Source of the DNA: a virus
IMG/VR virus record: IMGVR_UViG_3300020200_000014
Span: 21,059-85,058 of that record
Direction: 5' to 3' (one strand)
Length of the DNA stretch: 64,000 nucleotides
In this document: in pieces, positions 6,368-64,000 of the stretch
Layout: each line of letters opens with the position of its first letter
Numbering within the stretch: position 1 is the stretch's first letter
Position numbers and translations under genes: made by a program
Notes under the pieces: generated by a model
What the model was told of the DNA's origin: nothing
The model's database searches: none
Seen by the model: only the letters and a program-made list of their open reading frames with translations

Positions 6368-6375
6368 AATAATTA

Positions 6376-7301
6376 CTAATAGTTTGCATACTTCGGTTCA
6401 TCAATCATATCAACTAATTTTTTGAGTTCATTGATTCCATATTCAATATCATATAAACATATAAATCCTGTTTTGTAAAATTTTTCACTGCTTATACGAT
6501 AATCTCTTTTGTCCTCATCTTTAGTATATTCTGCTTTAATTATTTCTAAAGGTATAATTGATTTAATTTTTTCTACTAAATCCAGCTTTGAACAATTAAG
6601 AAAATCATTTCCAACATTGAATACTTCATCGATTGTTTTATTTGAATCTATCACATGAACAAATGCTCTACAAATATCTTGTATGTGTATATAATTTCTA
6701 ATAGCATGACTTTCATACAATACAATTACTTTTTCTTTTATTGCCTTTAAAACAAGATTATTAATTAGCAAATCAAACCGTGGCCTTTTTGAAATACCAA
6801 AAACAGTTGCAAGTCTCAGAATAGTGTAATTTTCAGATTGTTTAATTTCTTCTTCTGCTTCACACTTTGTTTTACCGTATATGGAGATAGGCAACAAAAC
6901 AGATTCTTCTGTTATAATTTCTTTATTGTCTGTAATGCCATATCCACTATTCGTATTTGGATATAATATTCTTTGATGTTTTGATCTTATATCGTTTATA
7001 AATTTTACGTGTCTATAATTTATAAGATAGCTATCTGTTGGATTACATTTACATAGATTAGCCCCAACTAATGCTGCAAGTGGTATTATAATATCATATT
7101 TTGGAACTAATTGTTTTAATAGCTCATCATCTCTAACATCTCCCTTAATAAATGTGAATTTTGAATTTGATATATAAGAAACAAGACTGATTCTTTCATA
7201 CAATAAATTATCAATAACCGTAACTTCATGATCTTGCAATAAATGTGCAATTAATTCTGAACCGATATATCCAGCTTTCCTCCAGTCACTAAAATATTCA
7301 T
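6376..7301 (-). CDS. NAD-dependent epimerase/dehydratase with a frameshift in the TGGAGYIG loop
   Basis: SD AAGGAG + ATG 7301 gives MNILVTGG; after 2 extra nt at 7276-7278 the other frame continues AGYIGSELIAHLLQDHEV...; YxxxK (YGKTK) present. Confidence 0.8.
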
Positions 7302-46084: not shown

Positions 46085-46835
46085 GCAACTGTGAGCCTCA
46101 ATCGTGCCGGTCAGTATTTTGTTGCTATTCTCGTTGAACGAGAAATTAAGCCACTCCACAAGGTTAAGAAGGAAGTTGGTATAGACCTTGGCATCTGTGC
46201 TTTAGCAACAACTTCTGCTGGCAAAGAGTATAAGAACATCCGTCCGTATCGTAGTTTGCAAAAAAGACTACGAGCATTAAACAAGAACCTGCATAGGAAG
46301 AAACTTGGTAGCAATAATCGTGAACGAGCCAGGAAGTTGCTTGCCAAGGTGCATATTAAGATTGCGAACATACGCAGCGACCATTTGCATAAAGTAAGTC
46401 GTCAGATAATTGACGAGAACCAAGTCATTTGTCTGGAGACGTTGAATGTAAGTGGCATGATGCGTAATCATTGTCTTGCTAAATCCATTGCCGATGTTAG
46501 TTTGTCTGAATTAGTCAGACAGATTGAGTATAAGGCGAATTGGTGTGGCAGGACGGTCATCAAAGTAGATAGATGGTTTCCATCCAGCAAGACTTGTTCA
46601 AAATGTGGTTTTGTCATGGACTCACTACCTCTTAAGATTAGAGAGTGGATTTGTCCGAAGTGCAAGGCAAAACATAACCGTGATAAGAACGCTGCTGTTA
46701 ACATCCTTAACGAAGGAAAAAGAACCGTAGGAACTACGGAGTTAGCGTATGGACTCAATGTAAGACCTAAGAGCATTCAAGGGCGGTTGAGGATGAAGTA
46801 CGAAGCCCCTACCCTTTAGGGTAGGGGTAGTTCAC
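46075..46835 (+). mobile_element. tnpB: Truncated IS200/IS605-family element (TnpB C-terminal half + right end)
   Basis: GIDLG, CLETL, PSSKTCS.CG, CPKC...H.RD.NAA.NI; hairpin cccctaccc-ttta-gggtagggg then TTCAC at 46831-46835. Confidence 0.9.
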
Positions 46836-47877
46836 CAGCTTCTTTTTGAGTATTAAAAGCAATAGCATCTTTTTTATTCTCAACCCAATCATAGTAGAGT
46901 CTTTCATTAGGTTTGCCCATCCATCTAACAGAATCGCTACCTTCGGCTACAATATACCATTTCTTATCTTTAGCAGCCATGAATCCGTCATAATATCCAC
47001 TATTGTAACGTTCTCCAAGTAAATCCAATTCCATTATCGATTTTCCTTCATCTTGATCTTCAACGCCTTGAGTATAACCAAGATGATAAATTTTCTTATA
47101 AATATTATCCTTTCTACCAGCATCGGGATCAGCTTCTTTCAAGTAAATGAACTCTTGTAATACTTCTTGCCTATAGCCTTCTTCTCCCATTATTTTCTTC
47201 ATTTCTTTACACCATTCAAGAGTATGTTCTGGATGTTCTGTGTGATCTGATTTAAATATATAAAAATTATTCTTTTTGTCTAGAGCATTTGTATATGTTT
47301 TATAAAACCAATTATTGTCTCTATTTGTTGTTGAAAGGACTATGCAATTACCACCACAACTTAAGACAGGAAACATACCTCTCCAATGACTTTCCATATC
47401 ATTATAAAAAGCTGCTTCGTCAATGAATAAATGGTTTAATGCTTGACCACATGTTGCTTGAGGCGTATAAGAAAACAATTTACAACTAGTTTCTATAAAT
47501 GTCTTTTGATGGTCATTATCTTTACTAAGTTTAGGTTTTATCCATTCAGGCAATTGATTTATAGCAAAATTCACAATCTTCATTAAACTGCAAGCTTCCC
47601 TATCAGTTTTAGAAATCATTACACAACTTTTATCTAATCCAAACATGCACTTCCAAAAGAGATAAAGAATTGTCGTTGTAGTAAAACCACCTTGTCTGAA
47701 TTTAGTGCCTATTACAAACCTATTATTTTCATAACATTCTATAAGTCTTTCTTGAAATGGATATAATTTTAGAGGAATAATTCCATGCTTTGGATGTAGA
47801 ATTTTGATGTAATTTTTAACGAAATAAGGGAAACTAAGTGCGCACTTTCTCAGTTCTTCGATTTGATTTATATTCAT
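46816..47877 (-). CDS. Terminase large subunit-like ATPase lacking the nuclease domain
   Basis: LYPFQ, KFRQGGFTT (Walker A), FIDEAAF (Walker B), LSTT; similarity ends at RQEVLQEF. Confidence 0.8.
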   Translation of the reverse strand: MNINQIEELRKCALSFPYFVKNYIKILHPKHGIIPLKLYPFQERLIECYENNRFVIGTKFRQGGFTTTTILYLFWKCMFGLDKSCVMISKTDREACSLMKIVNFAINQLPEWIKPKLSKDNDHQKTFIETSCKLFSYTPQATCGQALNHLFIDEAAFYNDMESHWRGMFPVLSCGGNCIVLSTTNRDNNWFYKTYTNALDKKNNFYIFKSDHTEHPEHTLEWCKEMKKIMGEEGYRQEVLQEFIYLKEADPDAGRKDNIYKKIYHLGYTQGVEDQDEGKSIMELDLLGERYNSGYYDGFMAAKDKKWYIVAEGSDSVRWMGKPNERLYYDWVENKKDAIAFNTQKEAGELPLP

Positions 47878-50654: not shown

Positions 50655-53294
50655 TTATTTATTGAAACTAACAGGACAAGCACCAGTTGCACAATCTACA
50701 TGAGCATAATCAACATCTTCTTGCATAGCTTTCTTAATTTGATTTAATACATCTTCATATTGTGCTTTAGTTACAGGTTCTTCTGGCAAATATTCATAAC
50801 TTGCTTCTTCTTCTTGAGGCATAATTGAACAACATTTAATTTGCTTTTGGTATTTTCTAAATGTCTTCGCAAATTCCATGAAACTAATCTTTTTAGGTTC
50901 ATATTTAAGCGTAAAACTAATTTGTCCCCCACTATCTCTTTTTAGAGGTTCACCATCTTCAGTAACCCCCCTAAGCCAATATTTTTCGCCTAACATGAGC
51001 CATTTATAGTGTTCTTCTGGTCTGCACTCTCCTGCTGTAACTAATTTATCGCCAATATCCAGATTGCAAATTTCTGGTATTGTGGGGAATCCTATGATAA
51101 CAGCATTTTGATATTTTATCAACTCTCTGCAAGGATAACCATTCTTTTTGTAAGCTTCCACCAAAGGATCACTTTTGCTAAACTGCACCCATCGCAAGTA
51201 CCATTTCATTGCTGCAAGATGCCATCCCTCTGTAAGACCAAATAGCTTAGATACAGAACCACTTGGTTTTATGGTAACGTCAGTGTGTGGAGGTAATAAA
51301 CCATATTTAGCACTGTATTTTTCAGCTTCATCTTGTACTGCACGTTTGATTCTAGACAAAAACATCCAAAATTCAGCAGACTTTTCTTCATCTATTAAAT
51401 CTCTAAACCCTAATTTGAAGAATTTCCAGGCAAATTCATGAACGCCAGTTAGTCCTATGCCAATTCTATTTGTTCTTTGAACTTCCTGAGAGTAAATGCT
51501 ATCCATAGTATTTACTCTAATTAAAGCCCTGGTCATGGCCCTAGCTGCTACTTCAACTTCATCAAGAGTATCCGCATGATAAGGAACTAAATCACCAATG
51601 ACACAAAAAGCACCCCAAAGAGCAATGGGAATTTCACTACAATTATGTGATTTAAATCCGTTGCCACAATAACAATTTACTTTTGCAACATTGCAATCAT
51701 AAACTTTTTGTTTACCAATATATTTTATGCTTTTAAATTTATCGACGCTTTTATTGATTAATAATTTGTCTCCTTGTTTGATTGATTGCAATTCTATCCA
51801 ATATCGTTTTTTATTTCTTATTACTAAAAATCTATGGTTTGCTGTAGCTGTTATTGAATATCCTCTATCTATTTTTAATTCAAATACATCTTTTTCACCT
51901 ATCTCTAGAAATCCGTGAGATTTATAGGGCTTTCCATCAACGATAGCATTAAATGGCACGTCAATTAAATCTTGAACCATTTTGGGACCGCCATCAGTCA
52001 AAACCCAGGTATCACCCGTAACACACGGATTGACAATCATCCAGTATTTTTTCTTAAGTGCCTTCTTCAGCAACCTGTTCAAATAAAGGTGCGTATCGTC
52101 ATTAATTTGATATTTTCTACTTCCTACTATCTCCTTTTTAAAATTATCTGTACCTTCATAATTAACATTTAATTTGTCAACATTAATAAACCCTGGTTCG
52201 CCTGTTCCATCGCCATACGCAGCCGTTGTTGCTAATTTAAATACTTTTCTAGCATGTTTGGCCAAACTAGAATCATATTTTGGATTATTTCTCTTAAGTT
52301 CTATTAATTCCCAAAATTCTTTATCAACTAAGATCGAATTATTTGAACTCCACAAAAAACTATTTGGTTTTATGACAAAGTTTTTTCTTGTTTCAATAAT
52401 TTCTTCTACATTTTGTCCATAATATTCAATTGGTCTTTTGATTGTTATAAATTGGAATATTGTTGGGTCTTTCCAATATTTTGTAGACATGCGTGCGCTG
52501 CGCCTAGCACCACCAAAAAGCACACATTCTGCAAAGTAATGATCGACATACATTGATTGCATAAAACGTGGTAAACCGGCCCCTTTAAGAGTCAATGCTT
52601 TTTGAAATGAATTCATAAGGGGAACAGGGCCACTAGCAGGGCGATTTTGCATGCCTTTAATTAATGCCCCTTTGGGTCGCACTTTCGAGAAATCTAAAAT
52701 AAGTAATTTATCTTTATGAATTTTTTCAAAGGCTGCATTTTCCCAAACTTCTAGAGCTTTTGCCCAACCTTCTCTCGTATCTTCGACTTCATACCACAGA
52801 ATATCTTTGCCTTTTCCATATTTGTGTCTTGCATCCCTTACACTTTCATGTGCAGAATAATCATAATCAGGATGCTTATCATCAATTACACACCTTAAAT
52901 TTGGTGCATTATCCCAATTAACCAACATCATATCGTCGTCATAGCTTCTGCCTACTCCTGAACCGGACATCAAGAGATAGAACATTGCAAAACTACTACA
53001 ACTAGTTGCGCAATTCGTAAAAACTTCTTGTGTACGTTCTGGTTGTGTCTCATCGCCATGTTGTAAATGCCGTCCAGACATGATGATGACGGCTTTTTCC
53101 AGATGCTTCTTTAATATCTTATATTCTTCTTTTTGTTCTTCTTTAGAATTGCATAGTAAAGAATTGCCTAATGCGACTCGATTTGAGACATCGCCCCATG
53201 TTTCCCATTCACCGTTCTCTTTTTTTCTTAGTATTGTTCTTTCTGCTACTGCCCTTCCCATTCCAGGATAAAAATCTCTAACAAAATGACTCAT
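50655..53294 (-). CDS. nrdJ: Class II (B12-dependent) ribonucleotide reductase with intein
   Basis: NC..S, GSGVG, ASGP.PLM, GGARRSA, GEPG, NP|intein|CSEI, TIKPSGS.SKL, C-terminal CATGACP. Confidence 0.9.
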   Translation of the reverse strand: MSHFVRDFYPGMGRAVAERTILRKKENGEWETWGDVSNRVALGNSLLCNSKEEQKEEYKILKKHLEKAVIIMSGRHLQHGDETQPERTQEVFTNCATSCSSFAMFYLLMSGSGVGRSYDDDMMLVNWDNAPNLRCVIDDKHPDYDYSAHESVRDARHKYGKGKDILWYEVEDTREGWAKALEVWENAAFEKIHKDKLLILDFSKVRPKGALIKGMQNRPASGPVPLMNSFQKALTLKGAGLPRFMQSMYVDHYFAECVLFGGARRSARMSTKYWKDPTIFQFITIKRPIEYYGQNVEEIIETRKNFVIKPNSFLWSSNNSILVDKEFWELIELKRNNPKYDSSLAKHARKVFKLATTAAYGDGTGEPGFINVDKLNVNYEGTDNFKKEIVGSRKYQINDDTHLYLNRLLKKALKKKYWMIVNPCVTGDTWVLTDGGPKMVQDLIDVPFNAIVDGKPYKSHGFLEIGEKDVFELKIDRGYSITATANHRFLVIRNKKRYWIELQSIKQGDKLLINKSVDKFKSIKYIGKQKVYDCNVAKVNCYCGNGFKSHNCSEIPIALWGAFCVIGDLVPYHADTLDEVEVAARAMTRALIRVNTMDSIYSQEVQRTNRIGIGLTGVHEFAWKFFKLGFRDLIDEEKSAEFWMFLSRIKRAVQDEAEKYSAKYGLLPPHTDVTIKPSGSVSKLFGLTEGWHLAAMKWYLRWVQFSKSDPLVEAYKKNGYPCRELIKYQNAVIIGFPTIPEICNLDIGDKLVTAGECRPEEHYKWLMLGEKYWLRGVTEDGEPLKRDSGGQISFTLKYEPKKISFMEFAKTFRKYQKQIKCCSIMPQEEEASYEYLPEEPVTKAQYEDVLNQIKKAMQEDVDYAHVDCATGACPVSFNK
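51642..52025 (-). mobile_element. Mini-intein (128 aa, no endonuclease)
   Basis: CVTGDT...TANHRF...VYD...SHN|C. Confidence 0.92.
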
Positions 53295-53364: not shown

Positions 53365-54645
53365 TTAACTAAAAATATTTCTAGCTAATCGCACAGAAGA
53401 AGTTTGTTGGATTTCTCTCAACCTTATTCTTTTCGGCACAGTGACCGTGCCACTATTGAGTTGAGAAACTATGTCTCTCTCCCCTGTACTTTTTATCATA
53501 ATACCTAATGCTCCATTCACATCAGCATTAAGAGTTTTTCCTACACTTGATTTAAATAATCCCCAAGGACTACGTTTGCCAAGATATTTTTCATGGTAGC
53601 ACATCTTTTCTCCAACAAGATGATCACACTTGGAAGTATATGCTTCGTTTTGAGTTTTAAATTCAATACCATTTAACTGACACTTTGCTTGTAATTTCCA
53701 AGCAAATTTTCCAAATGATAACATTGTAAAATTTTGATTATTACGTTTGCCATTATTTGCACATTTTTGTGCTTTCCAACCTTCTCCAACAATGACATTG
53801 CCAATTTTATTGATTATGCAAATTTGCACAATTAAATTAACATATTGATTTAAATATTCATTAATTTGCCTATTTCTCTTATCACCAAAACCAAAAATTT
53901 TACTGCCATATTTAATAGATTGTTTATCATAGATAGATTGAATTTTGCTTTTTTGTTTGTTGTAATACTGATTAATGGCTTTCATTTCTTTGCCATCTAG
54001 AATAAATGATTTTCCAATATTAGATAGACAAGTTGCAAAATTATCTACTCCAATGTCTATTGATAAAACATTCTTTTTATTTAAGTCATGGTTTTTCTCC
54101 TTTACTTCATAAACAAATTCAATTTCAAACCATTTAGCATTATTTTTAGGTAAAATTCTTACTTCTTTGACTTTACCTGTTACTGTTGGTGGTACAGGAT
54201 AATGAAATTCTTTGAAATTAAACTTACTTTGTAATTCCTTTGGTACTCGTAGCGTGAACCAACCTTTGCCACACCTGTTTTCTAATATAAGATAAATAAA
54301 AACAAAATAGCTATCTTTGGGCAAGTAGCCAGGTATATTAACAGGACGATTATAATTACCACCTTGCTTCTTCTTGAGCAAGCCGAAGAATGAGCGAAAA
54401 CTACGTTCCACTATCTTCATGGTTTGTTGAGCAGCCATTGTTGGCAAATTCTTATATTCTTTCGATCCCTTCATTACATGATAAGCACTGTTATAAGTTA
54501 AGAATTGTCCACATTGAAAAAAGTATTGTCTAGTTTCATAAAGTGTAGCATTGTACAGGTTTTTACTTCTTCTGCAAATTTCTTTGAAGAATTTGAGTTG
54601 TCCTTTACCAATCTTGAGTTTATTTTTTTGAACTTTAAACATCAT
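53365..54645 (-). mobile_element. tnpB: Full-length TnpB RNA-guided nuclease, no TnpA nearby
   Basis: SKNLYN, SIDIGVDN, EAYTSKCD, NADVNGA.GI. Confidence 0.9.
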
Positions 54646-54714
54646 TTGCCTACTACTAATCTTTTTTGGGTAAGCCAAAAATATATTTTAATGGATTGCG
54701 TATGACTATGCAAT

Positions 54715-57325: not shown

Positions 57326-58347
57326 ATATCTTTACCAATTTCTGATAAAACCTTTTTTTCTAAAGTAGTCTCAATTTGTTCAAGATAATTTTCAATCATT
57401 TCATCCTTGTTTGTTAAAATAGCTTTTGCATCTTTAACAATGTGATCAGAATCCTTTTTGGCAATTGGTACTATCTGCAAAGTCCCAGGCCCATGAGAAT
57501 GTAATTGATTTTTTAAATTAACAAGATCAACAGTACCTACATTAGAAGTTTGTATTTTTACGAAATTATTTTTTATTTCGTGATTATCGATATCATCATC
57601 TTTTATAACTAAATGTTTAGGACTTATAGTATTTTCAATATACTGCTTTTCCTTACTCTTAAAATCGAAAATAATTAAATGTTTTTTTTGAAAAGCTTCA
57701 CCAAAATCTAACTGTAATGGCGATCCAATATATTCAATGTTATCAGAGATTTGTTGCGGAGAATGATAATGACCCAAAAAAACATGCTTCCAATGAGAAA
57801 ATGAATCCTTAGAAACTTTTATCATCTCCCCATCATGCTCAACCACAACATCAGAAATTTGAGTCGCATTCAATTTAGCCCCATCAATAGCAATATGAGC
57901 AACCAAGATTTCTGATTCATTTTTTTTTAACTCTTCCATATGTTCAAGCGGATTATGAGTAAAAGGTAAGAAGTCCACCTTGTACCCATTGATGATATGT
58001 ACACTAGGTTTATCTACTACTATTACATTTTTAATAGCAGAAAGTGGCTTTAGACTGCTAATGTTCCATTTGTCGAAATACCAAAGATCATGATTGCCTA
58101 AAAGCAAATAGACATTGAACTTATTAGAATGAGCTTCAATAAGTTCAAAAGTCAAATGATATGCTAATACATCTATTTTTTCTCGATCATGAAATAAATC
58201 ACCACCGAAAATAATATCTCGAACCTTATGTTCTTCAGCTGTCTGATATACCCATTCAAGAACTTTCAGGCAATCATGTAATCTATTAACTGATTTTTTA
58301 TGTTGAGCGACATGTAAATCGCTAAAAATTAAAGTTTTAAATCCCAT
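57304..58347 (-). CDS. sbcD: Recombination nuclease gp47 / SbcD
   Basis: SDLH, GGDLFH, GNHD, LGHYH, YIGSP.Q.DFGE. Confidence 0.92.
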   Translation of the reverse strand: MGFKTLIFSDLHVAQHKKSVNRLHDCLKVLEWVYQTAEEHKVRDIIFGGDLFHDREKIDVLAYHLTFELIEAHSNKFNVYLLLGNHDLWYFDKWNISSLKPLSAIKNVIVVDKPSVHIINGYKVDFLPFTHNPLEHMEELKKNESEILVAHIAIDGAKLNATQISDVVVEHDGEMIKVSKDSFSHWKHVFLGHYHSPQQISDNIEYIGSPLQLDFGEAFQKKHLIIFDFKSKEKQYIENTISPKHLVIKDDDIDNHEIKNNFVKIQTSNVGTVDLVNLKNQLHSHGPGTLQIVPIAKKDSDHIVKDAKAILTNKDEMIENYLEQIETTLEKKVLSEIGKDICKEAKL

Positions 58348-58382
58348 TAGACTTAAAACTTTAACAATAATTTAAACTAAAG

Positions 58383-58685
58383 TCAATTCTTATTACCAAC
58401 AATCTTATCTAGGATGTCCCATATATCAGGAGTCTTCATCTTAAATACAGGTTGTTGAGGAGGAGCGCCGCCACCCATCGGAGGACCACCCATTCCACCC
58501 ATTGGAGGAGGAGGCCCACCACCGCCCATTGGAGGAGGCGGACCACCTATTCCACCCATTGGAGGAGGAGCGCCGCCGCCAAGAGGAGATGGACCACCAG
58601 GAAGACCAGCAGGAGAAGCAATTCCCCCAGGTCCGCCAGGCAAAGGTGCTTCCATTAATTCGTAAAATTCTCTAAATGTCTTCAC
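58383..58685 (-). CDS. Pro/Gly-rich low-complexity protein with capsid-targeting N-terminus
   Basis: MKTFREFYELME then PPPMGG repeats; TATAAATA at 58687-58694. Confidence 0.7.
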   Translation of the reverse strand: MKTFREFYELMEAPLPGGPGGIASPAGLPGGPSPLGGGAPPPMGGIGGPPPPMGGGGPPPPMGGMGGPPMGGGAPPQQPVFKMKTPDIWDILDKIVGNKN

Positions 58686-58730
58686 TTATTTATATATTGA
58701 TTTTTGCCACATTTCTGTTATATTGAGATA

Positions 58731-59264
58731 ATGAAGAAACTAAAATCAAAATCTCTGTCTATTTTTTTCCACAAATCAATTAGACATCTCCTGCCTTATC
58801 CTCCATCAATTGGAATTTTCGAACTAAATCATGTTGCTGATTACGAAAAGTGTCCAGATACATGGAAAAGAGATGGATTTTTTATTGGGATAAATGAAGA
58901 AGAAGCTCTTTTTTTTCATTTTGATACCCTAAACGAAATGGCAATTATAATCAACAAAGATGATAAAAATGCTCTAACTAACGAAAAAAGTAATTTGGTT
59001 TTAAAAGAAGGAAATCATCTTATATCGCCTCCAAAAAAAATACTTGATTTTTGGTTCGAATTTGACAAGGCCGGTCATCAATTTATTCCTCCAGCTAAAA
59101 TAGAAATCATTACATTTGAAACAAAAATAAGACCTCTTGATATATTTGAAATTTATTTAATTGATAAAAACCAATTCAAAGAAATAACAGATCAAGATTT
59201 ACCACCTATCGCAAAAGCAACTCAAGAATACATTACTACCTTAATGAATGGAACAAATAGCTAA
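58731..59264 (+). CDS. Hypothetical protein
   Basis: ORF from ATG 58731. Confidence 0.55.
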   Translation: MKKLKSKSLSIFFHKSIRHLLPYPPSIGIFELNHVADYEKCPDTWKRDGFFIGINEEEALFFHFDTLNEMAIIINKDDKNALTNEKSNLVLKEGNHLISPPKKILDFWFEFDKAGHQFIPPAKIEIITFETKIRPLDIFEIYLIDKNQFKEITDQDLPPIAKATQEYITTLMNGTNS

Positions 59265-60453
59265 ATTAGTTGATTATGCTCTTAAAGCTGAAAAATTAAA
59301 CATGAGAGAAGAAGCTTTAGATGCTTTTTTAGCTCTCAAAGAAATCTTCCCAACTTGTCCTCTTGTAAGAATAAAATTAGCTATTGCATATCTCTATACA
59401 AAGCAATTTAAAGAAGGACTAAAAGAACTTGAACACAGATTTGATCCACCTATAGAAAATGAAATAACCAAAATGCAAAGCTGGCCAGCCTTCATGGGAT
59501 CATCTGCAACTTTTAAAAATTTCTATCAAAAACCCCTATGGGATGGTAAAGAAGATATCAAAGACAAAACAATATTAGTCTTTGATGAAGCTGGATTTGG
59601 TGACTATATCCAATACATCAGATATCTTCCAAAACTTAAAGAAAAAGGCTGCAAAATAATTTTGGAAGTTAAACCAGAACTGTATGAATTATTCCAGAAC
59701 TTAGGTGTAGAAACCACACTTTGGAATAAAGAAGAAAAAATGAAAGCTTTTTTCTTTGCAATGACAAAAATTAAAGGTTATAAACCTCCATTACCACCCC
59801 ATGATTACGTCGCTTCTGTATTCTCTTTCCCCTATTATTTTGACCCTGACCTAAGTAAAATTCCATTAGAGCAATACCTTTTCCCAAAACAAAAAACAAA
59901 TTTAATTGAAAAATCAAATAAATTTAAAATTGGTTTGGTTTGGGCTGGAAATAGACAAGATAGCTGTGACCAAAACCGCTCTTGTTATCTAAAAAAGCTC
60001 GCTATTCTAGCAGAAATCCCAAATGTTCAACTTTTTAGTTTACAAAAAGGCGATACAAAACTACAATTAGATGTCAAAAACAATATGATTCGTAATTGGG
60101 AAATCAATGGAGAATTTGAATCTGTAAATCTCCTTGAAGGAACTGAAAATCTAAACTTAATTGATCTAGACGCTAAAATTAACGATTTTACCGACACAGC
60201 ACAAGCTATACAGGAATTAGACCTAATTATTTCAATCGATTCCGCCGTTATTCACCTAACCGGAGCATTGAATAAATCTGGATTCCTTATGCTGCCATTT
60301 ACACAACCAGATTGGAGATGGCAACTAAATTGGTATCCTTCCGTAAAAATATTCAGACAAAAATCTCATAATGATTGGGAAGGGTTAATTCAAGAAGTTA
60401 AAAAAGAAGTGGAATCGGAAATAAATTTCAAGAAATTCAAAAATTCACCTTGA
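59248..60453 (+). CDS. TPR + GT9-like glycosyltransferase
   Basis: W.G, E.GFGDYIQ..RY, IGLVWAGN, SLQKG, DF.DTA..I..LDLIISIDSAVIHL.GAL, DWRW. Confidence 0.85.
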   Translation: MEQIAKLVDYALKAEKLNMREEALDAFLALKEIFPTCPLVRIKLAIAYLYTKQFKEGLKELEHRFDPPIENEITKMQSWPAFMGSSATFKNFYQKPLWDGKEDIKDKTILVFDEAGFGDYIQYIRYLPKLKEKGCKIILEVKPELYELFQNLGVETTLWNKEEKMKAFFFAMTKIKGYKPPLPPHDYVASVFSFPYYFDPDLSKIPLEQYLFPKQKTNLIEKSNKFKIGLVWAGNRQDSCDQNRSCYLKKLAILAEIPNVQLFSLQKGDTKLQLDVKNNMIRNWEINGEFESVNLLEGTENLNLIDLDAKINDFTDTAQAIQELDLIISIDSAVIHLTGALNKSGFLMLPFTQPDWRWQLNWYPSVKIFRQKSHNDWEGLIQEVKKEVESEINFKKFKNSP

Positions 60454-60477
60454 AAATTTTGAATTGCTGCGTATGAT
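60450..60477 (+). promoter_or_regulatory. sigma70-type promoter for the tRNA operon
   Basis: TTGAAA-16bp-TATGAT. Confidence 0.6.
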
Positions 60478-60501
60478 AAATGTATCAGTAGGAAAAAATA
60501 A

Positions 60502-60567
60502 ATGAAATTTTTGTTTACAAGCCTGTTTTCACTCAGTTATTCGTTATCCAGCGGACACGAAGAATGA
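60502..60567 (+). CDS. Putative attenuator leader peptide MKFLFTSLFSLSYSLSSGHEE
   Basis: SD AGGA 8 nt upstream; 14 of codons 3-17 are F/L/S/Y. Confidence 0.75.
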   Translation: MKFLFTSLFSLSYSLSSGHEE

Positions 60568-60635
60568 CCGTTTAGGCTTGTACAGTAGAGGATCAGAAAA
60601 CCTCAGGAGCTTAAACGGGTTCCTGAGGTTTTTTT
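60516..60635 (+). promoter_or_regulatory. Transcription attenuator (1:2, 2:3 antiterminator, 3:4 terminator)
   Basis: tacaagcct (60516-24) pairs with aggcttgta (60574-82); ccgtttaggctt (60568-79) pairs with gagcttaaacgg (60607-18); terminator aaaacctcaggagc...gttcctgaggtttt plus U-run. Confidence 0.75.
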
Positions 60636-60663
60636 ATTTTAATTGTACCAAGAAAGGTAAAAA

Positions 60664-60978
60664 ATGCCAGTTTTAAGTGATTTTCCTTGGGTCAAACAAG
60701 AAGAAGGATACTTTGAAACAAAATCCGTCTTCAAAATGATCCCAGCCACAAATGACTTAGTTGCCGGTAAAAATTACAGAGTTAAACTTGAAGATGGACC
60801 TGAGTATATTGGAAAGTTCAAGACGTTCAGATACAGAAAGAAAACACATGATAGCCCTTCTGTAGCTGTATTCCTTGAATTTGAAATTGCCATAACAGGT
60901 GGAACTGGAAATGTAGTTATGGCAGAAGATAAAGTTAAAGAACTAAGACAAGTTGATGCCCCGATTGTATCAACTTAG
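60664..60978 (+). CDS. Hypothetical protein in the tRNA operon
   Basis: ORF with SD AAGG. Confidence 0.65.
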   Translation: MPVLSDFPWVKQEEGYFETKSVFKMIPATNDLVAGKNYRVKLEDGPEYIGKFKTFRYRKKTHDSPSVAVFLEFEIAITGGTGNVVMAEDKVKELRQVDAPIVST

Positions 60979-61005
60979 CTATTTGACAATTTGGATTAAT
61001 TATAT

Positions 61006-61097
61006 GGAGAGAATGGCAGCTATTGGCAGGCTGTACTAGTCTTGAAAACTAGCGTATATGAATAGTATACTGAGGATTCGATTTCCTTTTCTCTCCG
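61006..61097 (+). tRNA. tRNA-Ser(UGA)
   Basis: GGAGAGA/TCTCTCC acceptor; CTAGT-CTTGAAA-ACTAG; long variable arm; atypical D arm. Confidence 0.8.
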
Positions 61098-61105
61098 CTT
61101 AGTTC

Positions 61106-61176
61106 GCAACCTTAGTGTAAAGGTCGCACGTCACTCTGAAGAAGTGAAGGACACGTTTCGATTACGTGAGGTTGCA
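61106..61176 (+). tRNA. tRNA-Phe(GAA)
   Basis: GCAACCT/AGGTTGC; TCACT-CTGAAGA-AGTGA; TTCGA T-loop. Confidence 0.85.
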
Positions 61177-61181
61177 TTGTT

Positions 61182-61266
61182 GGAGCGATGGCAGAGTGGC
61201 TTATTGCACCAGTCTAGAAAACTGGAGTCCCGAAAGGGAACAATGGTTCAAATCCATTTCGCTCCT
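61182..61266 (+). tRNA. tRNA-Ser(AGA)
   Basis: GGAGCGA/TCGCTCC; CCAGT-CTAGAAA-ACTGG; variable arm TCCC-GAAA-GGGA. Confidence 0.85.
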
Positions 61267-61276
61267 TTAATATTAT

Positions 61277-61352
61277 GGCACCGTAGACCAACTGGTAGGA
61301 GTCGCCACGCTTAGAACGTGGATAGTGATGGGTTCGAATCCCTCCGGTGCTA
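61277..61352 (+). tRNA. tRNA-Leu(UAG), short variable loop
   Basis: GGCACCG/CGGTGCT; CCACG-CTTAGAA-CGTGG. Confidence 0.8.
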
Positions 61353-61374
61353 CTTTAATTGTACCAAGAAAACT

Positions 61375-61740
61375 ATGAAACATGATTTGAAAGTTTGGCT
61401 TGTTTTAGTCCCAGAAACCTTAAATGGCAAGAAAATAAATCGCAGTTACCATCGAGCTTGGGATAAAAAAGTTAGAGATATTACAAAAGGATTGACGATA
61501 CATTATACAGCCAAAGGTCAATGGATAAATCCTGAAGATGGAAAATTAACGTTGGAAGGCATGATACCTGTTCACATGGCCTGCACAGATGAACAGATCG
61601 AAATAATAACGGACATGACGGTAGAATATTACGAACAAAAAGTTATAATGTACTACCCAATCGCCAATAAAGTTTTTTTTAAAAAGCGAAAAACCAATGA
61701 AATGGATTCGTTGCGAAGTGACAAGAAAAGTTTGTCATGA
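61375..61740 (+). CDS. Hypothetical protein in the tRNA operon
   Basis: Start reassigned to ATG 61375 (MKHDLKVW) because the track start lies inside a tRNA. Confidence 0.65.
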   Translation: MKHDLKVWLVLVPETLNGKKINRSYHRAWDKKVRDITKGLTIHYTAKGQWINPEDGKLTLEGMIPVHMACTDEQIEIITDMTVEYYEQKVIMYYPIANKVFFKKRKTNEMDSLRSDKKSLS

Positions 61741-61933
61741 TTCAATGTGGCATGCTGCATGATCAATGAAAAGAACTGCAAAAATGACAAGTGAAGATGT
61801 AGGAGAATATAATATTTGGCGGTGCGAACATTGTGAATGCTGGCATATAGGACACAAAAATAAAAAGATAGAATTTAATGAAGGTTATTACAATCCATTC
61901 CAAATTGAGAAATTGTTGTATAGGAGAAAATGA
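61697..61933 (+). pseudogene. Small Cys/His protein with an in-frame TGA at 61760
   Basis: MKWIRCEVTRKVCHDSMWHAA*SMK...WRCEHCECWHIGH. Confidence 0.5.
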
Positions 61934-62023
61934 GGGGCAAAGGCGAATATTGGCTTCGTCGCAACACTTTGCTAAAGTGTCCCGGCTTAAAATCCGGTTT
62001 GAGTTCGATTCTCAATTGTCCCG
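61934..62023 (+). tRNA. tRNA-Ser(GCU)
   Basis: GGGGCAA/TTGTCCC; ACACT-TTGCTAA-AGTGT; long variable arm. Confidence 0.8.
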
Positions 62024-62034
62024 TTGGAGCAAAT

Positions 62035-62220
62035 ATGAAAATCAAAGAAATTAGAGAACTTGTTAAAAGATTTTCCAGAACTTTAGATGCCAATTGCGAA
62101 AAAGATGAATATGATTGGTGGGGCAGTGATAGAGCAATTTGGAATAATTTAGCAAATCAGTTCTTAAAATGGTGCGAAAAGAATAGGAAAGATATTGAGA
62201 AAGAGGTATATTCGTCGTAA
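62035..62220 (+). CDS. Hypothetical protein
   Basis: MKIKEIRELVKRF; SD GGAG. Confidence 0.55.
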   Translation: MKIKEIRELVKRFSRTLDANCEKDEYDWWGSDRAIWNNLANQFLKWCEKNRKDIEKEVYSS

Positions 62221-62223
62221 AAG

Positions 62224-62298
62224 GGCCTGGTATGCAAACTTGGCAAAGCAATCAAGCTCAAACCTTGATGAATATGGGTTCGAATCCCATCTGGGCCA
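62224..62298 (+). tRNA. tRNA-Leu(CAA), short variable loop
   Basis: GGCCTGG/CTGGGCC; TCAAG-CTCAAAC-CTTGA; ATGGG-TTCGAAT-CCCAT. Confidence 0.8.
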
Positions 62299-62299
62299 A

Positions 62300-62394
62300 A
62301 AAATCTCCTGTCCGTGAGGGCATGTGGGTTCGACTCCCACCAGCCGCATTGAACACTAAGCGGCTGTGGCGGAATTGGTATACGCTGGAGACTT
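62300..62394 (+). tRNA. Circularly permuted tRNA-Leu(UAA): 3' half 62300-62348, 11-nt linker, 5' half 62360-62394
   Basis: All stems reconstitute: GCGGCTG/CAGCCGC, Leu-type D arm, GGAGA/TCTCC, TGTCC-GTGA-GGGCA, GTGGG-TTCGACT-CCCAC. Confidence 0.8.
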
Positions 62395-62483
62395 GTGTGG
62401 TGTTCCTGACGGCGCTCTGTAAAAGCGTTGGCAACTAAACATGTCAGGTGGATGCCGAAGGGGTTCGATTCCCTCATCACGCA
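62395..62483 (+). tRNA. Atypical tRNA-Tyr(GUA)-like RNA lacking a D arm
   Basis: GTGTGGT/ATCACGC acceptor; GGCGCT-CTGTAAA-AGCGTT; T arm present; CCTGAC/GTCAGG long-range pairing. Confidence 0.6.
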
Positions 62484-62751
62484 TTTTTTATATAAGATTT
62501 TTTCTAGAAACCTTACTTTGGGTGTGTTTTGTGAAAAAAGCAAAGGTTTTATTGGCATAAGGGAAAAATTTGGGTATAGATATTTAGATCAAGAATATCA
62601 TTGGGATCAAGGTCCTCCTCATGGTACAGCTAGCCCAAAAGAATTATTGGAAGAATGCCCATTGGGATTAGACCATAACAGCAAAGAACTATTTGAGTGG
62701 TTAGATCAACATGAAAAAAATACAAACAAGCAAGATTTGGACGCTATTTGA
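62484..62751 (+). CDS. Hypothetical phage protein, probably 5'-truncated
   Basis: SRNL..GVF, FIGIREKFG..YL..EYHWD.G.P.GT; track start overlaps the tRNA-like RNA. Confidence 0.4.
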
Positions 62752-62908
62752 CGATGATAGTGTTAAAAAGAAGTTGAAAGTTATGGATAAATGGGATGCG
62801 ATGATGGATGATAGTCGCAACCCTGAATGTGACATTGCTGAACAGGTTGAAAAATTCTTGGAATTAGGGAAGAGTTATCGAGTTACAATATCATTTGAAG
62901 AAGTTTAA
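62711..62908 (+). CDS. Hypothetical protein
   Basis: ORF track. Confidence 0.5.
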   Translation: MKKIQTSKIWTLFDDDSVKKKLKVMDKWDAMMDDSRNPECDIAEQVEKFLELGKSYRVTISFEEV

Positions 62909-63013
62909 TCAACACATACTGCCAATGCTAAATAAAAATTCATTTGAAATTGTAGATTCTTTACCAATAAACTTTACAGGAAAAATCCCAAATTTTCTTA
63001 AAGTTTATCCATA

Positions 63014-63118
63014 GGCGGCGGGAAAACCTCTACATCGAAGATGCTGGCTTGCGTCGGAAGTGAGCGAAGCGAACGACCAGAGCAAGCCAGCCCTTTAGGG
63101 TAGAGGATGAGAGCCGCC
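63014..63118. repeat. Nested palindromic element resembling an IS200/IS605 end or MITE
   Basis: ggcggc/gccgcc, cctctac/gtagagg and gctggcttgc/gcaagccagc stems; shares ccctttagggtag with the IS end at 46812. Confidence 0.6.
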
Positions 63119-63119
63119 T

Positions 63120-63383
63120 TTAGTGTGAATGACTAATGGTTACATCTGGTTCGACCTGAGTAACACTTGCACCGCTCAAAGATGCCTCTCCCTCTTTTCC
63201 CTCTTCCCTTTCATACAACTTGAACAACGTGTTCTGATAGTTACCATCAGGATTAAGGTCTTGGTAATGCCGCATCCCAAGATGTGTCTCCATATATTCA
63301 CGCAACCGAGACACCGCTTCGCTCTCGTCAGAAGCAACAGGACCATTGACGCCAGCAATGGTAGCGATAAATTTTACGCTCAT
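63120..63383 (-). CDS. Hypothetical protein
   Basis: ORF with SD AAGGAG; higher GC. Confidence 0.6.
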   Translation of the reverse strand: MSVKFIATIAGVNGPVASDESEAVSRLREYMETHLGMRHYQDLNPDGNYQNTLFKLYEREEGKEGEASLSGASVTQVEPDVTISHSH

Positions 63384-63802
63384 GCCATATCTCCTTCATT
63401 GTCCATGACGACGTGCAGGTGCTTGGTATATTTCCCGCCGTGTACCACATCATTGAACCATATGATGCACGACGAAGATTTTTCTCCACCTGCTACCTGT
63501 GCCAGACAAGACAACAACGAACTTAGACCCGCTCGGTTTAAGGTAATCAAAGCATTGTCGTTACTTCCAGGTGGTTGCGAAGGGCTAAGGTAAATTTTAG
63601 GGTTCTGACTGACTTCCTTATGAATATATTCAATATCGACACCATCAATTCTATACTCACAAAACTGATATGAAGTCCAAACAAACAACTTGTAGTCAGT
63701 TGGGTCTTTGTCAAAACCAACACTAATCTTACTAATACTTCGTCCAAGATACTTCTCGGACAAAAAATTCTTCACTTTAGTTGCTTGCTCTAATGTAGCC
63801 AT
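63380..63802 (-). CDS. Hypothetical protein
   Basis: Start reassigned to MATLEQ with SD AGGAG. Confidence 0.55.
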   Translation of the reverse strand: MATLEQATKVKNFLSEKYLGRSISKISVGFDKDPTDYKLFVWTSYQFCEYRIDGVDIEYIHKEVSQNPKIYLSPSQPPGSNDNALITLNRAGLSSLLSCLAQVAGGEKSSSCIIWFNDVVHGGKYTKHLHVVMDNEGDMA

Positions 63803-63983
63803 CTTCTTCGCTCCTCTCTTCTTTTTTAATGAAAACATGCCGTGACAATTTGCCCGCATATTTGTTCCACGCTTCTACAATCTCAAAAGGAGATGCAGTT
63901 TTGTGACGTAAATAAAAGTCCAAGAACTTAGTATAGTCAGATTGAGACAATTCAGCCAAGTCTATATGGTATATGTTTTTCAT
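63777..63983 (-). CDS. Hypothetical protein
   Basis: ORF track. Confidence 0.5.
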   Translation of the reverse strand: MKNIYHIDLAELSQSDYTKFLDFYLRHKTASPFEIVEAWNKYAGKLSRHVFIKKEERSEEDGYIRASN

Positions 63984-64000
63984 TGTTAGTTCGTTTCCTG

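What the first reader, a model, noticed from the sequence alone, without database searches (positions are those of the whole stretch)
62300..62394. Circularly permuted tRNA-Leu(UAA) split in the anticodon loop, abutting tRNAs that could generate its ends
Seen: the 3' half (AAAA-TCTCC, variable arm, T arm, CAGCCGC-A; 62300-62348) comes BEFORE the 5' half (GCGGCTG, D arm, GGAGA-CTT; 62360-62394), joined by an 11-nt linker that closes the acceptor stem. All stems are intact, and joining the ends gives loop CUUAAAA (anticodon UAA, break between 34 and 35). It starts 1 nt after the tRNA-Leu(CAA) discriminator and ends immediately before the Tyr-like RNA. Established: permuted tRNAs are known from some algae and an archaeon, where a splicing endonuclease acts at BHB motifs; no BHB is evident here. 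Inference: 3' processing of the upstream tRNA and RNase P cleavage of the downstream one release it, an RNA ligase closes the anticodon loop, and the linker is then removed. Its cognate TTA codon is in the leader peptide, which argues for function. One spare A at 62299 makes the junction ambiguous (7-nt vs 8-nt loop).
Basis: partly seen in the sequence, partly recalled or inferred. Interest (0 to 1): 0.9.

Follow-up and report, generated by a model that had tools for sequence, protein, structure and literature searches.

The report
Back-to-front leucine tRNA gene in phage
A large lake-water phage carries a leucine tRNA gene whose back half is written before its front half, wedged exactly between two other tRNA genes; if cells can cut out and re-join the pieces it would be the first such gene described in a virus of bacteria, but it could also be a very fresh rearrangement scar.

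Summary
Window 62300-62348 is the 3' half and 62360-62394 the 5' half of a class II tRNA-Leu(UAA). Re-joined in a script, ARAGORN calls a canonical 84-nt tRNA. In native order ARAGORN and Rfam miss it. Contigs assembled from other lake-water runs bridge the swapped order with no differences, so a one-off misassembly is unlikely. The record is a tailed-phage fragment.

The break lies at U34/A35. The element starts 1 nt after tRNA-Leu(CAA) and ends directly before a non-canonical tRNA-Tyr. No BHB motif, splicing endonuclease, group I intron or RNA ligase was found in the 85-kb fragment, which CheckV rates 17% complete.

I found no relative with this layout. All close tRNA relatives are collinear or carry a group I intron at that same 34/35 site. 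Function is therefore unproven.

My odds:
- about 0.38: neighbour-tRNA processing plus an RNA ligase yields a working tRNA
- about 0.30: recent duplication-deletion scar
- about 0.20: tRNA mimic or nicked tRNA

Earlier notes of this scan report a similar permuted tRNA-Asn, split at 34/35 between two tRNAs, in another freshwater phage. I could not test that claim here.

The parts
62224..62298 (+). tRNA-Leu(CAA), 75 nt, short variable region. Its discriminator A62298 lies 1 nt before the permuted gene. Its 3' processing would create the 5' end of the 3' half.
   Evidence: ARAGORN; Rfam tRNA 54.8 bits. It is followed by AAAAA, not by T residues like the other 3' ends of the array.
62299..62299 (+). 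Spare A between the upstream discriminator and A35. If kept, the anticodon loop has 8 nt.
   Evidence: Sequence. ARAGORN on the script-joined form with this base gives an 8-nt loop.
62300..62348 (+). 3' half of tRNA-Leu(UAA): loop bases 35-38, the 3' strand of the anticodon stem, the long variable arm, the T arm, the 3' acceptor strand and discriminator A.
   Evidence: The 23-nt T-arm/acceptor pattern is shared with 14 collinear class II tRNA genes. The only copy in the 85-kb record.
62349..62359 (+). 11-nt linker that closes the acceptor stem. It starts with TTG like the 3' trailers of other tRNAs in the array, and its length is close to the array's inter-tRNA spacers (5, 7 and 10 nt).
62360..62394 (+). 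5' half of tRNA-Leu(UAA): 5' acceptor strand, U8, D arm, 5' strand of the anticodon stem, and loop bases C32 U33 U34.
   Evidence: The 27-nt pattern is shared with 25 viral tRNA-Leu(UAA) genes. The only copy in the record.
62395..62483 (+). Non-canonical tRNA-Tyr(GUA): 8/4 acceptor/T stems, and a D-stem strand plus D loop placed after the anticodon arm. RNase P cleavage at its 5' end would leave U34 with a 3'-OH on the 5' half.
   Evidence: weak tRNA-Sec-like Rfam match of 24.2 bits. A homologue in viral locus L084:974-1058 has compensatory acceptor, T-stem and long-range-stem changes and an encoded CCA.
62484..62490 (+). Run of T directly after the Tyr-like RNA. It may mark the end of the tRNA transcription unit.
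   Evidence: Sequence only. The terminator scan did not list it.

Best explanation
This is a real, circularly permuted tRNA-Leu(UAA) gene in a large tailed phage. It most likely arose from a tandem pair of Leu(UAA) genes that lost both outer halves.

Proposed working, with a rough probability that each step holds:
1. The array is transcribed as one precursor.
2. 3' processing of tRNA-Leu(CAA) and RNase P cleavage at the Tyr tRNA release a 95-96-nt RNA with 5'-phosphate and 3'-OH ends. It folds as a tRNA whose acceptor is closed by the 11-nt linker and whose anticodon loop is open between U34 and A35 (about 0.7).
3. RNase P cuts before G62360. The 3' end after A62348 is trimmed and receives CCA. 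The result is a two-piece, nicked tRNA-Leu that LeuRS could still charge (about 0.6).
4. An ATP-dependent RNA ligase of the T4 Rnl1/Rnl2 kind seals U34-A35. The ligase would be encoded in the unsampled 83% of the phage genome or by the host. Sealing could happen before or after step 3 and yields a working decoder of TTA, the phage's commonest Leu codon (about 0.38 overall).

What is shown: the sequence anatomy and its presence in several assemblies. Every RNA step is inferred.
For: - All 24 base pairs and the canonical loop (CUU + AAAA) are intact. The re-joined gene is 81-84.5% identical to collinear phage Leu(UAA) genes.
- All four boundaries are clean. The two inner ends meet at 34/35 with no gap or overlap apart from one A. 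The two outer ends lie 1 and 0 nt from neighbouring tRNA ends, whereas other spacers in the array are 5, 7 and 10 nt.
- The acceptor 3' end keeps discriminator A and the TTG-type trailer seen at other tRNA 3' ends of the array. Of 8 ends, 6 are clearly followed by TT and 1 is ambiguous.
- TTA makes up 45.6% of Leu codons, 37.6 per 1000 codons in 51 ORFs. No other tRNA in the 85-kb record can read it.
- The downstream Tyr RNA is a conserved gene, so an RNase P site at 62394/62395 is plausible.
- Independent contigs carry the layout.
- By contrast, the one other gap-filling permuted tRNA-like element I found (L050) has a UUCG-capped acceptor and no U33. The window's element has kept the signals of a true tRNA gene.
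Against: It is a singleton.
- The exact linker pattern gave 0 hits in viral contigs.
- The layout-specific pattern gave 0 hits in metagenome contigs.
- Of 25 loci with the 5'-half pattern, 24 are collinear and 1 holds a group I intron. All 14 loci with the 3'-half pattern are collinear.
- The only interrupted gene of this 5'-half type in genome contigs is collinear with a group I intron.
- A covariance model of the element found no second case in 48 viral records totalling 4.43 Mb.
- A doubling test behind 1767 tRNAs in 1.52 Mb found no other canonical case.

No Rnl1, Rnl2, RtcB, ATP-dependent ligase domain, 2'-5' ligase, Pnkp-type kinase or CCA-adding enzyme is encoded in the 85 kb.

A62299 would make an 8-nt loop. 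tRNA-Leu(CAA) is followed by AAAAA, not by T residues, so a clean cut there is not assured. My recollection is that RNase Z prefers U after the cut; I did not check this in a paper.

Every intact feature is also what a very recent scar would show. I found no such gene described for bacteria or phages.
Confidence: 0.38

Rival explanations
1. It is a recent rearrangement scar with no function. A tandem duplicate of tRNA-Leu(UAA) lost the 5' half of the first copy and the 3' half of the second, perhaps through microhomology between the A/T-rich anticodon loop (CTT|AAAA) and A/T-rich spacers. The remnant is transcribed and cut up with the array and then degraded, or persists as a useless nicked tRNA.
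For: - No relative keeps the layout.
- No ligase was found in the fragment.
- The spare A, and the missing T trailer after tRNA-Leu(CAA), look like deletion junctions rather than designed ends.
- The 11-nt linker with its TTG start looks like an ordinary inter-tRNA spacer.
- Duplication followed by loss of the outer segments is the published model for how permuted tRNA genes arise (PMC3978253, passages read).
- Phage tRNA genes are dispensable, so loss is tolerable.
Against: Four independent end points would have to fall within 0-1 nt of the only positions that leave complementary halves flush with the neighbours. My rough estimate is about 1 in 1000 for two random deletions; this is a reasoned figure, not a computed one. 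No decay is visible in any stem or conserved base. TTA is the phage's commonest Leu codon and no other decoder for it lies in the record. I found no comparable half-gene remnants behind 1767 tRNAs.
Confidence: 0.3
2. It is a tRNA-shaped non-coding RNA that does not decode. It would be a mimic of a tRNA nicked in the anticodon loop, related in topology to YrlA Y RNAs and to the loop-closed permuted tRNA-like RNAs that sit in phage tRNA clusters. It might act as a decoy or a ligand for tRNA-binding proteins such as nucleases, repair regulators or modification enzymes.
For: - The order T arm, loop-closed acceptor, D arm is common in phage tRNA clusters. Rfam YrlA matches below the gathering score occur at L073 (41.7 bits), L063 (38.1 and 33.5 bits) and L056 (36.9 bits).
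- Further cases with long closing stems and GNCGAA-type handles are in L044, L059, L068, L133, L146 and L130.
- L050 holds a 76-nt permuted tRNA-like RNA that exactly fills the gap between tRNA-Gly and tRNA-Ser.
- An engineered permuted tRNA-Leu mimicking a nicked tRNA binds the RtcR repair regulator (PMC10159003, passages read).
Against: - The window's element scores only 15.9 bits on YrlA against a gathering score of 69. Only the core (model positions 30-81) aligns, with E = 0.45 in a 126-nt search.
- It has no closing handle beyond the 5-bp anticodon stem and no GNCGAA motif.
- No Ro60/TROVE gene lies in the fragment.
- Unlike L050 and most YrlA RNAs, it keeps a discriminator, a normal trailer and a spacer-like linker, so RNase P would probably open it.
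- A mimic has no need for an exact CUU + AAAA loop and a full set of Leu features.
Confidence: 0.2
3. It is an assembly artefact, and the true genome has a collinear or tandem gene.
For: The record is a metagenome assembly. tRNA arrays contain short repeats such as T loops. Other organisms' contigs share 18-33-nt stretches with this region (loose ends).
Against: Contigs built separately from runs X7 and X9 bridge 3' half, linker and 5' half, and X9 also bridges both neighbours. X6 covers both outer junctions. All show 0 differences. A collapsed tandem repeat cannot join the upstream tRNA to the middle of the gene (reasoning). No second copy of either half exists in the record.
Confidence: 0.03
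4. The halves are joined by a splicing mechanism already known for tRNAs: either a BHB motif with a splicing endonuclease and ligase, as in algae and archaea, or a split (permuted) group I intron that circularises the exons.
For: The break is at U34/A35. This is exactly where group I introns interrupt tRNA-Leu(UAA). L019 scores 49.6 bits on Intron_gpI over the full model. L100 scores 31.1 bits. The exon borders were read. Published origin models start from tandem intron-containing genes (PMC3978253).
Against: The flanks are tRNAs. The base before the 3' half is A, not the terminal G of a group I intron. No Intron_gpI match appears at E <= 1 in 58000-64000 or at gathering score in the whole window. 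No two 3-nt bulges around a 4-bp helix can be drawn from the flanks (my reading). No splicing-endonuclease domain was found. The phage is a tailed phage of bacteria.
Confidence: 0.03

Closest known systems
[quoted passage not shown]
   Same: The 3' half is encoded upstream of the 5' half on one strand. A short intervening sequence closes the acceptor stem. The halves re-join into a canonical cloverleaf. The acceptor is expected to be opened by RNase P and tRNase Z with CCA addition. The origin model is a tandem duplicate that lost its outer segments.
   Different: [quoted passage not shown] Here there is no BHB and no endonuclease, and the host is bacterial. The ends would be made by processing of the abutting tRNAs, leaving 5'-P and 3'-OH. 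That end chemistry calls for a different class of ligase. No RNA evidence exists here.
YrlA (Y RNA-like A; Rfam RF02553; PMC4201824; bioRxiv 10.1101/312249)
   Same: A bacterial and phage RNA with T arm, loop-closed acceptor and D arm in this order. Its authors describe it as resembling circularly permuted tRNAs. The M. smegmatis member, which has a 7-bp acceptor, is cut by RNase P and receives CCA in vivo. Such elements are frequent in phage tRNA clusters.
   Different: YrlA ends in a long Ro60-binding stem with a conserved motif, has no anticodon loop, and lies near rsr. The window's element has only the 5-bp anticodon stem, exact loop halves, full tRNA-Leu sequence identity, a score of 15.9 bits against a gathering score of 69, and no TROVE gene in the fragment.
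Two-piece tmRNA from circularly permuted ssrA genes (Rfam RF01851, RF04321)
   Same: A bacterial precedent for a permuted gene of a tRNA-like RNA. The T arm and 3' acceptor strand lie upstream of the 5' acceptor strand, and the intervening segment is excised. Rfam aligns 62324-62367 to this part at 18.9 and 13.9 bits.
   Different: tmRNA works as two unligated pieces and has a tag reading frame and pseudoknots. Here the 5' piece is a plain D arm plus half an anticodon arm. ARAGORN's tmRNA search found nothing.
Phage T4 tRNA repair by Pnkp and Rnl1 (PMC3400036)
   Same: This is the enzyme activity needed here. It seals a tRNA broken in the anticodon loop once the ends are 5'-phosphate and 3'-OH.
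   Different: In T4 the break is damage inflicted by a host nuclease on a normal tRNA. Here the break would be encoded in the gene. No such ligase has been found for this phage so far.
tRNA-Leu(UAA) genes with a group I intron between U34 and A35 (seen here in L019 and L100)
   Same: The same tRNA species is interrupted at exactly the same phosphodiester bond.
   Different: Those genes are collinear and self-splicing. The window has swapped exons and no intron.

Membership tests
Circularly permuted tRNA genes (algal/archaeal type) | 3' half upstream of 5' half on the same strand, joined by a short sequence that closes the acceptor stem | tested here: met
   62300-62348, 11-nt linker, 62360-62394.
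Circularly permuted tRNA genes (algal/archaeal type) | The re-ordered halves give a canonical cloverleaf with a standard anticodon loop | tested here: met
   ARAGORN on the script-joined halves calls tRNA-Leu(taa) of 84 nt.
Circularly permuted tRNA genes (algal/archaeal type) | BHB or BHB-like motif formed by leader and trailer at the junction | tested here: not met
   The flanks are the acceptor strands of neighbouring tRNAs, and no bulge-helix-bulge can be drawn (my reading).
Circularly permuted tRNA genes (algal/archaeal type) | tRNA-splicing endonuclease available | tested here: not met
   PF01974 is absent from the 85-kb record. The record is a tailed phage. The fragment is only 17% complete, and no host genome was tested.
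Circularly permuted tRNA genes (algal/archaeal type) | Circular RNA intermediate and mature joined tRNA | not testable with these tools
   No RNA run holds the stretch.
Bacterial/phage class II tRNA-Leu(UAA) | A73, long variable arm, 3-bp D stem, anticodon UAA, and sequence likeness to family members | tested here: met
   after re-ordering only.
YrlA Y RNA (RF02553) | tRNA-like core in the order T arm, closed acceptor, D arm | tested here: met
   model positions 30-81 align.
YrlA Y RNA (RF02553) | Long terminal stem with the Ro60-binding motif, and a score at or above Rfam's gathering score | tested here: not met
   15.9 bits against 69, core only. There is only a 5-bp closing stem and no GNCGAA motif.
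YrlA Y RNA (RF02553) | Ro60/Rsr (TROVE) gene nearby | tested here: not met
   PF05731 is absent from the 85-kb record. The fragment is incomplete.
Two-piece (permuted) tmRNA | Tag reading frame and pseudoknots after the 5' acceptor strand | tested here: not met
   A canonical D arm and half an anticodon stem follow the 5' acceptor strand. Rfam gives 18.9 and 13.9 bits against gathering scores of 70 and 47. ARAGORN -m found none.
Group I intron-containing tRNA-Leu(UAA) | Interruption between U34 and A35 | tested here: met
   compared with L019 and L100.
Group I intron-containing tRNA-Leu(UAA) | Group I intron present, with collinear exons | tested here: not met
   No Intron_gpI match, and the exons are swapped.

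The most novel reading that the evidence does not exclude
A bacteriophage makes a working tRNA from a back-to-front gene without any splicing endonuclease. Ordinary end-trimming of the two abutting tRNAs (RNase Z and RNase P) releases a pre-nicked tRNA-Leu(UAA). An Rnl1/Rnl2-type RNA ligase, normally regarded as a repair enzyme against host anticodon nucleases, closes the anticodon loop. RNase P and CCA addition open the acceptor. This would be a third, BHB-independent route to permuted tRNAs and a constitutive role for phage RNA ligases. Together with the permuted tRNA-Asn noted earlier in this scan, it would define a class of such genes in large freshwater phages.
Probability: 0.33. Interest if true: 0.9.

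Novelty: new variant of a known kind. Interest (0 to 1): 0.65.

Why it matters
Permuted tRNA genes are known only where a splicing endonuclease recognises BHB motifs: some algae, one archaeon and an algal virus. I found no report for bacteria or their phages in searches of PubMed Central and bioRxiv.

A functional case here would show three things:
- The universal tRNA end-processing enzymes plus a repair-type RNA ligase are enough to express a permuted tRNA gene.
- Phage RNA ligases can have a role beyond damage repair.
- tRNA gene finders miss part of the phage tRNA repertoire.

The idea is directly testable with one small cassette.

If it is a scar, it is still a rare snapshot of the duplication-and-loss intermediate proposed for the origin of permuted RNA genes and of YrlA-type mimics.

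Tried and rejected
**Search for relatives**
- blastn of window 60900-62600 against 50,697 phage records gave 12 records. All matched other tRNAs of the array (query 282-450), and none matched 62224-62483.
- The search for related loci found nothing with the 401-aa neighbour, the SbcD-like neighbour or a 3-protein alignment.
- The same alignment in metagenome contigs gave 15 distant loci (25-49% identity in the best segment), none with a tRNA.
- The search for homologous proteins gave 168 proteins. The best non-self hit was 35% identical.
- The tail sheath protein found only distant cultured phages.

**Anchoring on the neighbours**
- A Leu(CAA) anticodon-arm pattern gave 43 viral loci. Reading the printed contexts by eye, I saw none followed by a tRNA 3' half.
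- A Tyr anticodon-arm pattern gave 2 loci. One is a normal tRNA-Tyr (L083). The other is a homologue of the odd Tyr RNA with no half-gene before it (L084). Neither locus shares proteins with the window's genome by tblastx.

**RNA runs.** No RNA holder was listed.

**Uninformative or failed analyses**
- The fold of the whole 267-nt tri-tRNA stretch mispaired T loops between tRNAs and told nothing.
- The promoter and terminator scan added nothing around the element.
- My first two permuted-tRNA detectors were too permissive, because chimeras of adjacent tRNAs passed ARAGORN. I dropped them.
- The L073 candidate from the doubling test has a mismatched acceptor and is noise.

**Not tested.** The earlier scan notes on a permuted tRNA-Asn could not be tested.

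**Readings considered and rejected**
- Permuted tmRNA, a BHB-type gene and a split group I intron are covered under rivals and the membership test.
- A two-piece tRNA that decodes without ligation is rejected. My recollection is that tRNAs cut at 34/35 by colicin E5 are inactive; I did not check this in a paper.
Full report
**What is there.** Window 62299-62394 lies inside a phage tRNA array. ARAGORN finds six tRNAs in the window: Ser(UGA), Phe(GAA), Ser(AGA), Leu(UAG), Ser(GCU) and Leu(CAA). It finds nothing at 62300-62483. Rfam at E <= 1 also sees no tRNA there. It gives only a 17-nt tmRNA 3'-end match on the T arm and a weak tRNA-Sec-like match on 62394-62483.

Read by hand, 62300-62348 has the 3' part of an anticodon loop (AAAA), a stem strand (TCTCC), a 4-bp variable-arm hairpin, a T arm, CAGCCGC and A. 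After 11 nt, 62360-62394 has GCGGCTG, U8, a 3-bp D stem with a GG-containing loop, GGAGA and CTT.

When a script joins the two pieces in tRNA order, ARAGORN calls an 84-nt class II tRNA-Leu(UAA) with every stem paired. Including A62299 gives an 8-nt loop. The native 96 nt fold into the corresponding permuted cloverleaf as the minimum-energy structure (-37.2 kcal/mol, z = -2.57, 2 of 200 shuffles as good).

**It is a piece of real tRNA-Leu(UAA) sequence.**
- A 27-nt pattern of the 5' half (3 N) occurs in 25 viral loci, and a 23-nt pattern of the 3' half (1 N) in 14.
- For the 5'-half pattern, 24 of 25 loci run straight on from CTT into AAAATC. One (L019) runs into an intervening sequence.
- For the 3'-half pattern, 14 of 14 loci are collinear class II tRNA genes.
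- The re-joined sequence is 81-84.5% identical to its 15 best matches among 182 tRNA-Leu genes in the loci held, and all 15 have anticodon UAA.
- Neither half has a second copy in the 85-kb record.

The record is an 85,058-bp IMG/VR virus fragment with 33.6% G+C, no terminal repeat, and a CheckV completeness of 17%. Fourteen lake-water metagenome runs of 2018 hold the stretch, and none is RNA.

In Logan's per-run contigs:
- X9 covers 62271-62698 and X7 covers 62321-62471.
- X6 covers 61900-62355 and 62366-62771.
- X1, a possible source of the record, covers everything.
- All show 0 differences.

The runs may come from one campaign, so they show one population, not independent lineages.

**The setting.** The record encodes a tail sheath, tail tube, baseplate hub and a large terminase fragment. 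It also encodes SbcCD-like proteins, CTP synthase, a class II ribonucleotide reductase with an intein, a TnpB-like protein and a radical SAM protein. It is therefore a tailed phage of bacteria, with no close cultured relative.

The permuted gene starts 1 nt after the discriminator of tRNA-Leu(CAA) and ends directly before G62395. That base is position 1 of an odd tRNA-Tyr(GUA), in which one D-stem strand and the D loop lie after the anticodon arm. The Tyr RNA has a homologue in viral locus L084. Its compensatory changes fall in the 8-bp acceptor, the T stem and the long-range stem, and it has an encoded CCA. I therefore take the Tyr RNA to be a working gene with an RNase P site at 62394/62395. 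Earlier notes of this scan describe the same rewired layout for many phage Arg and Ile tRNAs; I did not test those.

Elsewhere in the array the spacers are 5, 7 and 10 nt. Six of eight 3' ends, including that of the permuted 3' half and the Tyr RNA, are clearly followed by TT. Leu(UAG) is ambiguous. Only Leu(CAA), which abuts the permuted gene, is followed by AAAAA.

**What could join the halves.** The known routes do not fit.
- No BHB can be drawn from the flanks, which are acceptor strands of the neighbours.
- No splicing-endonuclease domain is present.
- No group I intron is detected at E <= 1 in 58000-64000 or at gathering score in the whole window.
- The base before the 3' half is A, not G.

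Cleavage after the upstream discriminator and RNase P cleavage before the downstream tRNA leave 5'-phosphate and 3'-OH ends. Those are the substrates of ATP-dependent RNA ligases such as T4 Rnl1, which restores tRNA broken in the anticodon loop (PMC3400036, passages read).

That bacterial RNase P opens a loop-closed 7-bp acceptor in a permuted tRNA-like RNA, and that CCA is then added, has been shown for M. smegmatis YrlA (PMC4201824, passages read). LeuRS does not read the anticodon (established knowledge, recalled), so even the nicked form could be charged.

Against this route:
- The 85 kb encode no Rnl1, Rnl2, RtcB, ATP-dependent ligase domain, 2'-5' ligase, AAA_33 kinase or CCA-adding enzyme. 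About 83% of the genome is unsampled.
- The spare A62299 gives an 8-nt loop unless it is trimmed.
- The AAAAA trailer may be a poor RNase Z context (recalled, not checked).

**Is it used?** TTA is the commonest Leu codon of the phage, at 45.6% of Leu and 37.6 per 1000 codons in 51 ORFs. No other tRNA in the record reads it.

Upstream of the array lies a 21-codon ORF (60502-60567, MKFLFTSLFSLSYSLSSGHEE) followed by an 18-bp terminator hairpin. Its Phe, Leu, Ser and Tyr codons match the isotypes of the array, and its single TTA could be read only by the permuted gene. This observation came from another first-reader note. I confirmed only the ORF and the hairpin. Because TTA is so common, its presence there is weak evidence.

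**Relatives.** I found none with this layout.
- Exact linker pattern in viral contigs: 0.
- Layout-specific pattern in metagenome contigs: 0.
- 5' half followed by a base other than A in 185,579 genomes: 1 locus, L100. It is a collinear gene with a group I intron. Intron_gpI scores 31.1 bits there.
- Covariance model R1 of the element searched over 48 viral records (4.43 Mb): of the 30 best loci, 28 overlap collinear Leu genes, one is the 3' exon of the L019 intron gene, and one is a YrlA-like RNA.

I also ran a doubling test. It takes the stretch directly after each of 1767 ARAGORN tRNAs in 1.52 Mb of phage DNA, doubles it, and asks for a tRNA whose anticodon loop spans the joint. It returned the window's element as the only canonical case. 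It also returned L050, a 76-nt permuted tRNA-like RNA that exactly fills the gap between tRNA-Gly and tRNA-Ser. That element has a UUCG-capped 8-bp acceptor, a G.A pair in the closing stem and an 8-nt loop without U33. It is a mimic, not a decoder.

**Topological cousins.** The order T arm, loop-closed acceptor, D arm is common in phage tRNA clusters.
- Rfam YrlA matches below the gathering score occur in L073 (41.7 bits, full model), L063 (two) and L056.
- Similar elements with long closing stems are in L044, L059, L068, L133, L146 and L130.
- The authors of the YrlA structure say these RNAs resemble circularly permuted tRNAs and may derive from tRNA dimers (bioRxiv 10.1101/312249, passages read).

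The window's element shares only the core (15.9 bits). It lacks the Ro60 handle, and no TROVE gene is in the fragment. It differs from all of them in keeping an exact anticodon loop, a discriminator and a spacer-like linker.

**The 34/35 coincidence.** The break is exactly where group I introns interrupt tRNA-Leu(UAA). In L019 the 5' exon ends in CTT and the 3' exon starts with AAAATC after a G. The intervening 220 nt score 49.6 bits on Intron_gpI over the full model. L100 is alike.

[quoted passage not shown] An intron-bearing tandem ancestor is therefore conceivable here. No intron remnant is left to support it.

**Weighing.** The genomic arrangement is real (about 0.95) and derives from tRNA-Leu(UAA) (about 0.98). 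A working tRNA requires a ligase that I have not found, and no conservation supports it. On the other hand, a neutral scar needs four deletion end points to fall within 0-1 nt of the only functional positions, with no decay since.

My odds are:
- 0.38 for maturation to a working tRNA by neighbour processing plus ligation
- 0.30 for a recent scar
- 0.20 for a non-decoding tRNA mimic or nicked tRNA
- about 0.06 for artefact or known splicing routes

The remaining 0.06 is unassigned.

Earlier notes of this scan (e1-5402338, e1-5402357) describe a permuted tRNA-Asn split at 34/35 and framed by two tRNAs in another large freshwater phage. They say it is conserved with compensatory changes, in a phage that has its own RNA ligase. 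If that holds, the functional reading here gains a good deal. I could not test it, and it is not counted as evidence.

**Literature.**
- Full-text searches for permuted tRNA with phage or bacteriophage, for "circularly permuted tRNA", for permuted + tRNA + huge phages and for split tRNA + bacteriophage + RNA ligase returned no report of a permuted tRNA gene in a bacterium or bacteriophage.
- The only viral case found is the algal virus BpV1 (PMC3673656, passages read).
- A 2023 paper's introduction lists permuted tRNA genes only as the known circularise-and-cleave cases (PMC10085705, passages read).

Noticed in passing
window 62395-62483; L084:974-1058: A tRNA-Tyr(GUA) with no D arm in the usual place. 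CCTGAC (62405-62410) pairs with GTCAGG (62446-62451) across the anticodon arm, and the acceptor/T stems are 8/4. A homologue in an unrelated viral contig keeps the layout through compensatory changes. ARAGORN misses both.
   Followed up: partly
window 60502-60634: A 21-codon ORF, MKFLFTSLFSLSYSLSSGHEE. It uses 4 different Leu and 5 different Ser codons, and 14 of codons 3-17 are Phe, Leu, Ser or Tyr. An 18-bp terminator hairpin follows it, upstream of an array that encodes only Ser, Phe, Leu and Tyr tRNAs. It may be a codon-sensing attenuator.
   Followed up: partly
window 61277-61352 and 62224-62298: tRNA-Leu(UAG) and tRNA-Leu(CAA) are only 76-77 and 75 nt long and have short variable regions. 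Bacterial tRNA-Leu is normally class II, so their amino-acid identity is open.
   Followed up: no
window 61182-61266: tRNA-Ser with anticodon AGA (A34), which is unusual for bacteria and phages.
   Followed up: no
L019 about 6395-6716 (- strand); L100 5808-6122: A phage and an alphaproteobacterial tRNA-Leu(UAA) gene, each with a group I intron between U34 and A35. Intron_gpI scores 49.6 and 31.1 bits, both below the gathering score of 50. ARAGORN misses both genes.
   Followed up: partly
L050 (- strand, oriented 6295-6370): A 76-nt circularly permuted tRNA-like RNA that exactly fills the gap between tRNA-Gly(GCC) and tRNA-Ser(GCU). Its acceptor is capped by a UUCG tetraloop and it has no U33. 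It is probably a tRNA mimic released by processing of its neighbours.
   Followed up: partly
L044:2690-2860, L059, L068, L073:5840-5950, L063:999-1067 and 3036-3104, L056:3299-3377, L133 (three sites), L146 (three sites), L130:1480-1600: YrlA-like permuted tRNA-shaped RNAs with long closing stems are frequent inside phage tRNA clusters. All score below Rfam's gathering score, and several carry a GNCGAA-type handle.
   Followed up: partly
window 50655-53294 (-), 53365-54678 (-), 46816-47877 (-): A class II ribonucleotide reductase with an intein domain, a TnpB/OrfB_IS605-like gene next to it, and a 353-aa ORF that matches only part of large-terminase profiles. The terminase gene may be split.
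   Followed up: no
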